Shown one piece after another: positions 36,001 to 39,000 of a stretch of 64,000 nt of DNA (position 1 is the stretch's first letter; every line of letters starts with the position of its first letter). Position numbers: made by a program. The stretch lies in NCBI RefSeq assembly GCF_055900595.2, contig NZ_CM148325.1; one strand, written 5' to 3'.

Positions 36001-39000
36001 ATGTGAGAAATATTTTACCCGCTATTTTACCCATTGGCGCGGCTTAAGAGCTTATTTTTGAATTCACAATGGTCACGATATAACCATCTTGCTCGCCCGT
36101 GGATAACTTTGGCTTTTGGTAGGTCGCCGGACTTAATCCGGTCATAGATGAAGGTTTTACCGAAGCCAGTATCGGCCATGATGAATTTCAAATCAACCAG
36201 TGAATCAGGTTGTAGTTCGTGTTGCATGAGTGCTATCTCCGAATAGGGAATCGAACCTGCAAATCAGGCAATAAAAAACCGCATTGATGCGGCAATGGTA
36301 GGTCTGGATATCTTGAGAAATGAACGGGCCTCATCGAGTGTGAGGCTGTGGTTAGTCCTTGCGTAACTCGCTAATTCTTCTGTAAGTCTCTGGTGCTTTG
36401 TTTCCGTGTATCTTCATTTCAGACTTCAACAGAGCAACGAGAGAATCCCATTCGTTGAGGATGCCTTTGAATGCCGGAACGCGCTTTGCAACCTTGTCGA
36501 ATGAATCCCTGATTTCTGGAATCTGCTCGACAAGCGCAACGCATCGTCGGAAATCGGCTGCGTCATGTGGAGCACCGAAGCTATGACCATAGATATTCTT
36601 TTTCAGTCCACATGCGATTGAGGCAAGAGTTGCGCTACTGATGCCAACATCGCCAGTCGATTGCCATTTCAAAACCTTCATAGCCAAATCTGACATTTCT
36701 TGTCTCCAATAAAAAAACCGCCATCAGGCGGCTTGGTGTTCTTTCAGTTCTTCAATTCGAATATTGGTTATGTCTGCATGTGCTATCTGCGCCCATATTA
36801 TCCAGTGGTCATAGCAGTCGTTGATGTTCTCTGCTTCGATAACCCTGTTGAATGGCTCTCCATTCCATTCTCCTGTGACTCGGAAGTGCATTTATCATCT
36901 CCATAAAACAAAACTCGCCGTAGCGAGTTCAGATAAAAGAAATCCCCGCGAGGGCGGGGATGTTAAGTCGGTGGGGGTACAGTATGGATATCGAAAATTA
37001 TTGCGCGATTCTCATTACTCCCCTGGGAAAACATTATCTGGCAAGCATACGTTGTTGATGCTGTTTCACAACACGTAAACGTAAGCTGTCATAGGCCCAA
37101 TTGTAGAACATGGTATATGGTAGAAAGAAAAGGAAGAATCCTATCTCTAGTGTAAAAGCCTGTAACAGACTGACGCTCAGAATCCAGGACACCATAATGA
37201 CGCCGATCGCGATAAATCCACTTTCAAAGCCCAAAGCATGGAATGCACGAACTTTTGCAGTTCGTTTTACCTGATGAGCAGGCCAGTAGCGATCAAATAG
37301 CATGTTATAGATGATATTCCAGATCATTGCAGTTGAAGCCAACAAGATAGTCATCCCGCCCATTTCGAGTATAGTTCGCTGCATTAACCATGCTGTGGTG
37401 GGGGCCAGAATCGCAGTGGCAATTCCTTCAAAGCAAATAGCGTGAAAAATACGCTCAAGTAACGATCTGTGTTGAATCGCATTATGTTGCATAACTTACC
37501 TTTCTTACAGTTTCGACCGCGTTATGGAGTTGTGAGATTTTTATCGATTTATGTGATATATAAAAGATAGATACCATCGAAAAAATTGATAGATTATGCG
37601 TTACTCACTTGAAGCGTTAAGTACATTTGTTGAAGCGGTTTCCTGTGGCTCCTTTTCTGCTGCGGCACGAAGATTACGCAAAAGTCAGTCCGCAGTCAGT
37701 ACGTCAATTGCCAATCTTGAGGTCGATCTTGGTATATCATTATTCGATCGCTCTTCGCGAGAACCTGTGCTGACAGAGGAAGGAAAGAAAGTATTGAGTT
37801 ACGTTCATGCGATTTTGTCAGCCAGTGAACGTCTTGAGGAGGTGGCGGTTTCGCTTGCCGGAGAGACTGAAGCTCGTCTGACGTTTGTGCTTTCCGATAC
37901 CCTACACCCTGACTTATTAGAAGACATCATGGTGCAGTTTGATAGTCAGTTTCCACATACTGAGTTAGAGGTTTTAATTGGTGAGGATGTCGATGTCATC
38001 GATCTTTTGCAAAAAGAACGAGCGCAGATCGGCTTAATTGAGTCTCGGGAACACTACCCCACCGATATTGGCTCAACCCGTTTACCGATGCAAGCGTGGA
38101 TGGGCATTTATGTTTCGGCGTCACATCCACTGTCTGCAGAAAAAACAATCCAGCGGGAACAACTTCATTCATGGCGAGAACTTCGTCTTAATACTTATAT
38201 CGATAACCGGGAGATGATTGCCCGTGGACCGGTTTGGTCTGCACCTAACTATTTGTTGTTACTCAGTATGGCCGTACAGGGATTTGGCTGGTGCTCTCTG
38301 CCCTGTGCTCTGGTTGAGGAGTTTGCAACAGAAAAACCGCTGGTTCAGCTCGACGTACCTGGCTGGCCAAAGGCAATTTCTATCGATCTGCTTTGGAATA
38401 AAAAATCGCCACCAGGCGCGGCTGGAAATTGGCTTAAGCATCATTTACAGCATATCAATGCCCCAAATAGTCGAACTTAGATTAGTTAAAATATGGAATC
38501 CTGAAATAATCTATGTTGATATGTGGAGCCATCTTCCAGGCTCCCACCTAAATCATGTTAGCAGTTCCATTTTTTTGATGATTTCCGCATGAGCATCATC
38601 GTTATCCCCAGCGACAAATTGAATACAAAACCAGTGCTACCGCCATTGCAATTCCTACCGTTGCGAATGCTTCAGGCCAGCTCATTGATTCACCTCCTGC
38701 GGCGGTTCTGGTAGTGGTATCCAGAACAAGGCGTTCCCTAACCACGATAAAGTGCCGTCGCTCAACTCCACGTATTCCCCTTGCACCTGTCCTGCCATAT
38801 ACTCACCGTGCTTTGAATAAATTAAAATCCAATCATCTTGAGCGGGCATTCGCTCACTACAGCTTATCCAACCACCCGGAGTTACCGGAGAGTTGCCGCG
38901 TTCTTTAATGTGCAAGCGAGGCTCACCATCTTTTGGTTCAGGCCACTGGCGCTCCATGTTGATCTTCAATTTATCTTCCTGTAGTGGCACACTGAATTTG

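What the first reader, a model, noticed from the sequence alone, without database searches (positions are those of the whole stretch)
36352..36891. Unassigned small genes between the AlpA and PACE-like genes
Two co-oriented ORFs of 114 and 55 aa with plausible ribosome-binding sites and terminators lie between the AlpA-like regulator and the PACE-like gene. They could be island regulatory or anti-defence factors, but there is no recognisable family.
Basis: seen in the sequence. Interest (0 to 1): 0.3.

Follow-up and report, generated by a model that had tools for sequence, protein, structure and literature searches.

The report
Known lambdoid phage genes orf55 and ORF114
The two small genes are real, but they are near-identical copies of long-catalogued lambda-type phage accessory genes (lambda orf55 and phage 434 ORF114), left in the stump of a decayed prophage; this is ordinary, and their function is still unknown.

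Summary
Both ORFs exist exactly as described: 36696..36352 (114 aa) and 36891..36724 (55 aa), minus strand, each with a GGAG ribosome-binding site and flanked by strong terminator hairpins.

**What they are**
- They are the phage 434/HK022 genes ORF114 and ORF55 (GenBank M60848).
- The 55-aa protein is 96% identical to lambda orf55.
- Both are the last accessory genes of the N-antiterminated early-left (pL) operon, the "exo-xis region", just upstream of the excisionase.
- The "AlpA-like" neighbour is TorI, 100% identical to the E. coli K-12 KplE1 excisionase, and the argW attR core lies at 35933-35953.
- The rest of the prophage has been replaced by a PACE-LysR cassette and an IS-rich island, so the genes are probably silent relics here.

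**Evidence that they are genes**
- dN/dS is 0.1-0.2.
- About 60% identical homologues occupy the same position in Salmonella, Cronobacter, Citrobacter and Klebsiella prophages.
- They are not an obligate pair; each occurs without the other.

**Function**
- No Pfam, NCBIfam or PDB relative was found; only PHROG families of unknown function match.
- ORF55 is an acidic beta-beta-alpha-beta miniprotein. Its fold is generic, and T7 Gp2 is only one of many matches.
- ORF114 is a confident all-alpha model with no structural relative. It belongs to a large phage family (2,841 clusters) with invariant residues D45, D48, R51 and C52.

Function is unproven. Low interest.

The parts
35933..35953 (-). attR core: 3' end of argW (CTGCAGGGGACACCA) plus flank. 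This is the right end of the prophage, next to cscB.
   Evidence: 21-nt exact match to the 3' end and flank of tRNA-Arg in strain EC42405. Aligned with the K-12 KplE1 attR/pawZ region.
36027..36227 (-). torI: KplE1-type excisionase (recombination directionality factor).
   Evidence: 66/66 aa identical to K-12 TorI b4501. RefSeq annotates it as torI in near-identical genomes. It has only sub-threshold Pfam HTH_17 and AlpA hits.
36264..36350 (-). 5' stump of a P22-type excisionase gene (HSLTLDEARSFLKISRPT...). It marks a mosaic joint downstream of ORF114.
   Evidence: The translation matches the N-terminus of the Cronobacter phage ENT47670 excisionase. The same stump follows ORF114 in 434 and HK022 and precedes torI in K-12.
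36272..36293 (-). Intrinsic terminator t'I (hairpin GCCGCATCAATGCGG plus T6) downstream of ORF114.
   Evidence: The homologous site is annotated as terminator t'I in the phage 434 record M60848.
36352..36696 (-). ORF114: orthologue of phage 434/HK022 ORF114 (phrog_1229). A 12.7 kDa protein, pI 9.2, predicted as seven alpha-helices.
36704..36707 (-). GGAG ribosome-binding site of ORF114.
   Evidence: Read from the sequence.
36708..36734 (-). Intrinsic terminator between ORF55 and ORF114. The ORF55 stop codon lies in the hairpin loop, followed by T7. In lambda this same hairpin directly precedes pI and xis.
36724..36891 (-). ORF55: orthologue of lambda orf55 (lambdap35) and 434 ORF55 (phrog_676). 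A 6.5 kDa protein, pI 4.9, with a beta-beta-alpha-beta fold.
36899..36902 (-). GGAG ribosome-binding site of ORF55.
   Evidence: Read from the sequence.
36903..36961 (-). Two tandem intrinsic terminators upstream of ORF55 (the tL4 region). Homology to lambda, 434 and HK022 ends just upstream of them.
   Evidence: The tL4 terminator is annotated at the homologous site in 434 and HK022. The alignment breakpoint is shown.
37034..38480 (.). Context: a PACE efflux gene (37492..37034, -) and a LysR regulator (37596..38480, +). This cassette occupies the place of the upstream ea genes.
   Evidence: The full arrangement is found in only 4-5 of 5,426 E. coli genomes.
38682..39005 (-). Context: a stump of a phage ea-region gene (dATP/dGTP pyrophosphohydrolase C-terminus plus DUF551). 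An IS3-family element abuts it at 39016-40220.
   Evidence: The equivalent pseudogene is followed by an intS pseudogene and argW in EC42405.

Best explanation
**Identity (shown).** The two ORFs are genuine protein-coding genes. They are the orthologues of phage 434/HK022 ORF114 and of lambda/434 orf55.

**Normal setting (shown).** In an intact lambdoid or P22-like phage they are the last, non-essential genes of the early-left operon, in the 'exo-xis' region immediately upstream of the excisionase. That operon starts at pL and reads through the tL4, inter-genic and t'I terminators only when N antitermination is active. The genes are therefore made in the first minutes of infection or induction (inferred from the known lambda regulatory scheme).

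**This window (shown for the anatomy, inferred for expression).**
- The genes lie in the attR-proximal stump of a decayed KplE1/HK620-type prophage at argW, in the order attR, torI, xis stump, ORF114, ORF55.
- pL, N and the recombination genes are gone. A PACE-LysR cassette and an IS-rich island have replaced them.
- With four terminators around them and no recognisable promoter, the genes are most probably silent passengers in this strain.

**Likely mode of action (inferred, not shown).**
- ORF55 is a 6.5-kDa acidic beta-beta-alpha-beta miniprotein. Small phage inhibitors such as T7 Gp2, phi29 p56, several Acr proteins and T4 Dmd use this kind of scaffold. It most likely works by stoichiometric binding to a host protein.
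- The published candidate target is RNA polymerase. The only genetic datum is that a lambda segment containing orf73, ea22, ea8.5 and orf55 was suggested to play a role in inhibiting host replication initiation.
- ORF114 is a 12.7-kDa basic, seven-helix protein from a very large phage-only family. Residues W11, S20, P43, D45, D48, R51, C52 and W83 are invariant. That pattern suggests a defined ligand or active site used in host takeover or counter-defence.
- The two genes are independent modules, not a functional pair.
For: **Identity**
- Megablast gives 94-97% nucleotide identity to phages Gally, HK022, 434, mEp213 and Stx phages.
- GenBank M60848 annotates int, xis, t'I, ORF114, ORF55 and tL4 in the same order; HK022 is the same.
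- ORF55 is 53/55 identical to lambda lambdap35.
- PHROG matches are 1.9e-51 and 2.1e-38.

**Operon position**
- The intact argW prophage of strain Ecol_545 reads cI-like repressor, N, Rad52-like, ssb, exonuclease, anti-RecBCD, DUF551, ASCH, ORF55, ORF114, torI, cscB.
- The gene lies directly upstream of xis/int in Salmonella SPN9CC, Cronobacter ENT47670, Citrobacter and Klebsiella prophages.

**Prophage stump**
- TorI is 100% identical to K-12 TorI.
- The attR core is present.
- There is no tRNA in the window.
- Strain EC42405 shows the order torI, ORF114, ORF55, PACE, LysR, dATPase pseudogene, intS pseudogene, argW.

**Coding signature**
- dN/dS is 0.11-0.22.

**Terminators and promoters**
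- Terminators are supported.
- No sigma-70-like promoter was found on the minus strand.

**Structures**
- The ORF114 model has pLDDT 93 and is all-alpha.

**Family size and invariant residues**
-.

**Independence of the two genes**
-.

**Literature**
- orf55 is listed as an exo-xis gene (PMC3824215).
- A Gp2-like model has been published (PMC8614690).
- A link to host replication has been reported (PMC9239242).
Against: - No experiment or homology assigns a biochemical activity to either protein.
- Silence in this strain is inferred only from consensus scans. Read-through from the PACE gene or an unrecognised promoter is not excluded.
- Both reading frames are still intact. That could reflect residual selection rather than recent decay.
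Confidence: 0.8

Rival explanations
1. The genes are anti-defence (counter-immunity) factors. They would be small early proteins that neutralise a host immune system.
For: - They sit in an accessory hot-spot alongside anti-RecBCD (abc2) and Lar/Ral-type restriction-alleviation genes.
- Their distribution is patchy and moron-like. One example is an opposite-strand insertion among tail genes in a Vibrio phage.
Against: - There is no sequence or specific structural similarity to any characterised anti-defence protein.
- A literature search linking the exo-xis region to anti-defence found nothing.
- The structural matches are to a very common small fold.
Confidence: 0.2
2. ORF55 specifically is a T7 Gp2-like inhibitor or modulator of host RNA polymerase. 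It would bind the beta-prime jaw and sigma-70 region 1.1 (Donaldson 2021 model).
For: - The published AlphaFold/RoseTTAFold model and docking support this (PMC8614690).
- The protein is acidic (pI 4.9).
- W9, R45 and E47, the residues used in the docking, are invariant in the family.
Against: - No Pfam family matched at E<=1.
- One of the two Gp2 arginines that are deleterious when changed to alanine is replaced by Asn.
- The paper itself calls the model speculative.
Confidence: 0.15
3. The genes are regulators or accessory factors of excision and integration. This would explain why they always sit directly upstream of xis/int.
For: Adjacency to xis/int is conserved across phages with different recombination modules: lambda-type Xis, TorI-type and P22-type.
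Against: - No HTH or other DNA-binding fold was detected.
- Lambda lacks ORF114, and the Salmonella, Cronobacter and Citrobacter elements examined carry ORF114 without an orf55 next to it, yet the published site-specific recombination modules consist of int, the RDF and the att sites only (PMC3509656).
- The adjacency is explained by the operon end and by a mosaic joint that carries a xis stump.
- Distant ORF114 homologues occur in lytic-type or unrelated contexts.
Confidence: 0.08
4. The ORFs are chance or decayed reading frames with no protein product.
For: They lie in a degraded prophage full of pseudogenes and have no Pfam family.
Against: - dN/dS is 0.1-0.2.
- Frames are intact in hundreds of genomes and phages.
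- AF2 models are confident.
- ORF114 has thousands of divergent homologues with invariant residues.
Confidence: 0.01

Closest known systems
Bacteriophage lambda orf55 (lambdap35, NP_597778), the last gene of the exo-xis region
   Same: 55 aa, 53/55 residues identical. It has the same upstream tL4 hairpins and ribosome-binding site, and the same terminator hairpin over its stop codon.
   Different: In lambda it directly abuts pI and xis. Here, as in 434 and HK022, ORF114 is interposed. Here the downstream recombination gene is torI rather than lambda xis.
Phage 434 / HK022 ORF114 and ORF55 (GenBank M60848, X51962)
   Same: The same two genes in the same order with the same terminators t'I and tL4, at 95-96% nucleotide identity.
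   Different: They are attached to a KplE1/HK620-type torI-attR(argW) module instead of lambda-type xis-int-attP. The upstream operon is deleted.
KplE1 (CPS-53) cryptic prophage of E. coli K-12 and the HK620/Sf6 argW recombination module
   Same: TorI is identical. The attR core is the same, and so is the region upstream of torI, including the xis stump and a 16-nt segment resembling the argW T-arm.
   Different: K-12 carries yfdT and ypdJ upstream of torI, not ORF114 and ORF55. This window lacks intS and argW and carries PACE-LysR cargo.
T7 Gp2 (host RNA polymerase inhibitor)
   Different: There is no detectable sequence relationship. Many unrelated proteins score higher. One arginine that is deleterious when mutated in Gp2 is not conserved. 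Binding is untested.

Membership tests
Lambda orf55 family (phrog_676) | Full-length, high-identity match to lambda/434 orf55 (55 aa) | tested here: met
   96% aa identity over 55/55 residues. phrog_676 E=2.1e-38 over positions 1-55 of 55.
Lambda orf55 family (phrog_676) | Position at the distal end of the pL operon, downstream of tL4 and upstream of the excisionase | tested here: met
   Alignment with lambda, 434 and HK022. Annotations.
Phage 434/HK022 ORF114 family (phrog_1229) | Full-length match to ORF114 | tested here: met
   phrog_1229 E=1.9e-51 over residues 1-114. 95% nucleotide identity to 434 ORF114 with dN/dS 0.11.
Phage 434/HK022 ORF114 family (phrog_1229) | Family-invariant residues W11, S20, P43, D45, D48, R51, C52 and W83 | tested here: met
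   All are present in the window protein. They are invariant in 47 diverse members and 98-100% conserved in 109 members.
Lambdoid exo-xis region gene set (functional class affecting the lysis-lysogeny decision and host replication) | Measured effect on lysogenisation, induction or host replication | not testable with these tools
   Only literature on lambda segments that include orf55 is available (PMC9239242; PMC3824215). No single-gene data for orf55 or ORF114 were found.
T7 Gp2 RNA polymerase inhibitor family | Sequence homology to Gp2 | tested here: not met
   No Pfam family matched at E<=1. No PDB sequence hit to Gp2.
T7 Gp2 RNA polymerase inhibitor family | Specific structural similarity to Gp2 | tested here: inconclusive
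T7 Gp2 RNA polymerase inhibitor family | Binding to the RNAP beta-prime jaw and inhibition of sigma-70 transcription | not testable with these tools
   Only a speculative published docking model exists.
   E=0.12, 12.7 bits against a cut-off of 21. The protein is instead 100% identical to TorI.
Known anti-phage defence systems (PADLOC) | Match to any model of a defence-system protein | tested here: not met
   No hits for either ORF or for diverse homologues.

The most novel reading that the evidence does not exclude
Probability: 0.2. Interest if true: 0.5.

Novelty: already known. Interest (0 to 1): 0.15.

Why it matters
The result matters little for this locus. It shows that the 'unassigned island genes' are ordinary lambdoid phage accessory genes in a prophage stump, and that the 'AlpA' gene is TorI.

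There is a modest general point. Two of the oldest sequenced phage ORFs still have no function. ORF114 turns out to belong to a very large phage family with a sharply conserved motif and no known structural relative. That makes it a reasonable target for structural and functional work. The exo-xis region is implicated in lysis-lysogeny timing and in Stx prophage induction.

Tried and rejected
- **Family libraries.** Pfam, NCBIfam and PADLOC scans of both ORFs and of 47 diverse ORF114 homologues found nothing.
- **PDB sequence searches.** Single-sequence and profile searches gave only chance hits.
- **Domain fusions of ORF114 homologues.** Twenty multi-domain members had no known partner domain. 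The one exception is a CCA-adding-enzyme fusion on a 1.9-kb contig. That is too thin to build on and may be a gene-calling fusion.
- **Genomic context of metagenomic homologues.** The contigs were too short to be useful.
- **Literature.** A search for 'ORF114/ORF55/434' returned only unrelated viruses. Linking exo-xis with anti-defence returned nothing relevant.
- **Rfam.** The only hit was a sub-threshold isrK match (17 bits against a gathering score of 50, E=0.7) over the inter-genic terminator. I rejected it as chance.
- **Zinc site in ORF114.** I considered a site like that of Ea8.5 and rejected it, because C29, H38 and H44 are not conserved in homologues.
- **ORF114 as a relative of dATP/dGTP pyrophosphohydrolase.** I rejected this. 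The PF04447-bearing hits are recombinant chimeras rather than homologues.
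Full report
**1. Observation**

The ORF list gives 36352..36696 (-) at 114 aa and 36724..36891 (-) at 55 aa. 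Both start with ATG and are co-oriented. Each has a GGAG 7-8 nt upstream of its ATG (sequence).

The terminator scan finds 8 terminator-like sites in 35500-37600, against 1.8 expected by chance. Four of them are on the coding strand:
- Two tandem hairpins lie upstream of ORF55, at 36961-36942 and 36930-36911.
- One lies over the ORF55 stop codon, at 36734-36715, followed by T7.
- One lies downstream of ORF114, at 36293-36278, followed by T6.

Their folding energies are -14.8, -11.9, -13.2 and -8.2 kcal/mol, with z-scores from -4.3 to -2.0.

**2. Identity**

The 721-bp region matches 269 phage records at 90-99% identity. These include Gally, HK022, 434, mEp213/mEp043 and many Stx-converting phages.

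GenBank M60848 (phage 434) annotates attP, int, xis, terminator t'I, 'ORF114', 'ORF55' and terminator tL4 in exactly this order. The HK022 record X51962 marks tL4 at the same place.

In lambda the gene next to xis is lambdap35 at 55 aa. It is 53/55 identical to the window's ORF55. [quoted passage not shown]

Both proteins match PHROG families of unknown function end to end: phrog_1229 at 1.9e-51 and phrog_676 at 2.1e-38. Neither has a Pfam or NCBIfam family. It misses that these are named, long-known phage ORFs.

**3. Context**

*The neighbour gene.* The 'AlpA-like' gene at 36027-36227 is 66/66 identical to TorI, the excisionase of the K-12 cryptic prophage KplE1/CPS-53. Its Pfam AlpA and HTH_17 scores are below threshold.

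*The attachment site.* A 21-nt match to the 3' end and flank of argW lies at 35933-35953. This is the attR core next to cscB. The window contains no tRNA gene at all.

*The intact arrangement.* In strain Ecol_545 an intact prophage occupies the same site. Its order is LexA-like repressor, N, small ORFs, Rad52-like, ssb, exonuclease, anti-RecBCD, DUF5405, DUF2737, DUF551, ASCH, ORF55, ORF114, torI, cscB. The two genes are therefore the promoter-distal genes of the N-antiterminated early-left operon.

*The break in this window.* Homology to the phages stops just upstream of the tL4 hairpins. Beyond that point lie:
- a PACE efflux gene (NCBIfam NF033665, 2.9e-61) and a LysR regulator;
- a stump of a phage dATP/dGTP-pyrophosphohydrolase/DUF551 gene at 38682-39005;
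- an IS3-family element at 39016-40220;
- an IS-rich island carrying an autotransporter, an MFS transporter and an alcohol dehydrogenase.

*How common it is.* The exact torI-ORF114-ORF55-PACE-LysR arrangement occurs in only 4-5 of 5,426 complete E. coli genomes. In EC42405 it is followed directly by an intS pseudogene and argW.

**4. Are they real genes?**

Pairwise Nei-Gojobori analysis gives dN/dS of 0.11-0.22 for ORF114 against 434 and Ecol_545. It gives 0.11-0.15 for ORF55 against 434, lambda, Ecol_545 and a Klebsiella prophage with dS of 1.7.

ORF114 homologues in Salmonella SPN9CC, Cronobacter ENT47670 and a Citrobacter prophage are 58-63% identical in protein (alignment identities to other members), while synonymous sites are saturated. 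In all three, the gene again lies directly upstream of xis/int. In Klebsiella, orf55 lies directly upstream of a lambda-type Xis.

Across complete E. coli genomes, 2,693 of 5,426 carry at least part of the region and 296 carry at least 80% of it. Many of the partial matches listed cover only the orf55 portion.

The two genes occur independently of each other:
- Lambda and the Klebsiella element have only orf55.
- The Salmonella, Cronobacter and Citrobacter elements have only ORF114. The small ORF upstream of the Citrobacter gene is unrelated to ORF55.

They are not a functional pair.

**5. Mosaic anatomy**

In lambda the hairpin over the orf55 stop codon is followed directly by the sequence that precedes xis (TTGCGTGTAATTGCGG...). 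The 434 record annotates the homologous sequence as the CII-dependent pI promoter. In 434, HK022 and this window the ORF114 module is interposed and ends with a second, similar hairpin, t'I.

The 87 nt after the ORF114 stop codon translate to HSLTLDEARSFLKISRPT.... This is the N-terminus of a P22/ENT47670-type excisionase. The ORF114 module was therefore imported, together with a xis stump, from a phage in which ORF114 directly precedes xis. The same stump precedes torI in K-12, in the ypdJ region.

Many database 'homologues' are chimeras with breakpoints inside ORF114. They are fused to Ea22, Kil, Erf or dATPase fragments. This illustrates intense recombination in this region.

**6. What the proteins look like**

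*ORF55*
- Mass is 6.5 kDa and pI is 4.9.
- AlphaFold2 gives a confident beta-beta-alpha-beta fold with pLDDT 87. This agrees with the published model of lambda Orf55.
- The resemblance to Gp2 that underlies the published 'RNAP modulator' idea is reproducible but not specific.

*ORF114*
- Mass is 12.7 kDa and pI is 9.2.
- The model is seven helices with pLDDT 93 and pTM 0.86.
- A PDB profile search is empty.
- The viral structure library returns only uncharacterised phage proteins, among them a 155-residue protein at 46% identity (UniProt Q7Y3W5) and one from Clavibacter phage CN1A.

*The ORF114 family*
- An exhaustive profile search finds 2,841 clusters at 50% identity with E<=1e-3, and 646 with E<=1e-10.
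- W11, S20, P43, D45, D48, R51, C52 and W83 are invariant. G18, S21, G30, L55 and P60 are nearly so.
- Homologues occur in Vibrio (152 records), Aeromonas, Yersinia PY54, E. coli Bas82 and Arthrobacter phages.
- They sit in early or accessory regions next to exonucleases, methyltransferases and Lar-like genes. In one case the gene is an opposite-strand moron between tail genes.
- Fusion partners are uninformative, apart from one fusion to a CCA-adding enzyme on a short contig.
- None of the proteins matches a known defence-system model.

**7. Mechanism**

*Shown.* Gene identity, operon position, terminators, purifying selection and prophage decay.

*Inferred from the established lambda scheme.* In an intact phage the genes are transcribed from pL only when N suppresses tL4 and the following terminators. 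That places them early in infection or induction. Here pL and N are absent, two terminators separate the genes from the PACE gene, and no sigma-70-like promoter is detected on their strand. They are most likely silent.

*Inferred function.*
- ORF55 probably acts as a small stoichiometric binder of a host protein. RNA polymerase is the published but speculative candidate.
- The only genetic hint comes from lambda. Earlier work (Sergueev 2002, as cited in PMC9239242) suggested a role for orf73 and the three adjoining genes ea22, ea8.5 and orf55 in inhibiting host replication initiation.
- ORF114, with its invariant Asp/Asp/Arg/Cys cluster, looks more like a protein with a defined ligand or catalytic site. 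Its moron-like distribution points to host takeover or counter-defence.
- Neither role is demonstrated.

**8. Comparison and novelty**

The genes are members of the lambda orf55 and 434 ORF114 families; all tested criteria were met. They are not demonstrable members of the Gp2 family. There is no sequence homology, the structural similarity is non-specific, and binding is untestable here.

The finding is already known as sequence features, deposited in the early sequence records M60848 and X51962, and is ordinary in this context.

The only mildly novel by-product is that ORF114 belongs to a very large family that is absent from Pfam and has no known structural relative. Interest is low (0.15). 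The most novel reading not excluded is that ORF114 is a new enzymatic or counter-defence domain, with probability about 0.2.

Noticed in passing
window 36264-36350 (- strand): The spacer between ORF114 and torI encodes the first ~18 codons of a P22/ENT47670-type excisionase (HSLTLDEARSFLKISRPT...), followed by the t'I hairpin. The same stump follows ORF114 in 434 and HK022, and it precedes torI in K-12 (ypdJ region). It is a fossil recombination joint showing where the ORF114 module came from.
   Followed up: partly
window 36247-36262 (- strand): A 16-nt stretch, TTGCAGGTTCGATTCC, is identical to the T-arm of argW tRNA-Arg. It lies just upstream of the torI ribosome-binding site, about 300 bp from the true attR core. 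It is conserved in K-12 KplE1 and in Ecol_545. Its origin and function are unexplained.
   Followed up: partly
window 37034-38480: A PACE-family biocide efflux gene with a divergent LysR regulator sits as cargo inside the former ea region of the decayed prophage, between the tL4 hairpins and a DUF550/DUF551 phage gene stump. The full arrangement is shared by only 4-5 of 5,426 complete E. coli genomes.
   Followed up: partly
window 38682-40220 and onward to 64000: An IS3-family element (39016-40220) abuts the phage gene stump. It joins the prophage remnant to an IS-rich island with IS66, IS30 and IS21 fragments, an autotransporter, an MFS transporter and an alcohol dehydrogenase; 23 genomes share this island. 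intS and argW, expected at the other prophage end, are absent from the window, which contains no tRNA gene.
   Followed up: partly
L007 37-1713 (protein P0265): An ORF114-like domain (residues 451-537) is fused to the C-terminus of a CCA-adding tRNA nucleotidyltransferase with an HD domain, on a 1.9-kb metagenomic contig. This may be a real fusion or two adjacent genes merged by gene calling. It is the only hint of a functional partner.
   Followed up: no
L021 3872-4330 (Vibrio phage K233 g2): An ORF114-family gene lies on the opposite strand between the tape-measure gene and other tail genes. This is a classic moron position, far from any integration module.
   Followed up: no
proteins P0015, P0029, P0035, P0053, P0063: Many database relatives of ORF114 are chimeras. 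Halves of ORF114 are joined in frame to fragments of Ea22, Kil, Erf or dATP/dGTP pyrophosphohydrolase, which indicates frequent recombination breakpoints inside the gene.
   Followed up: no
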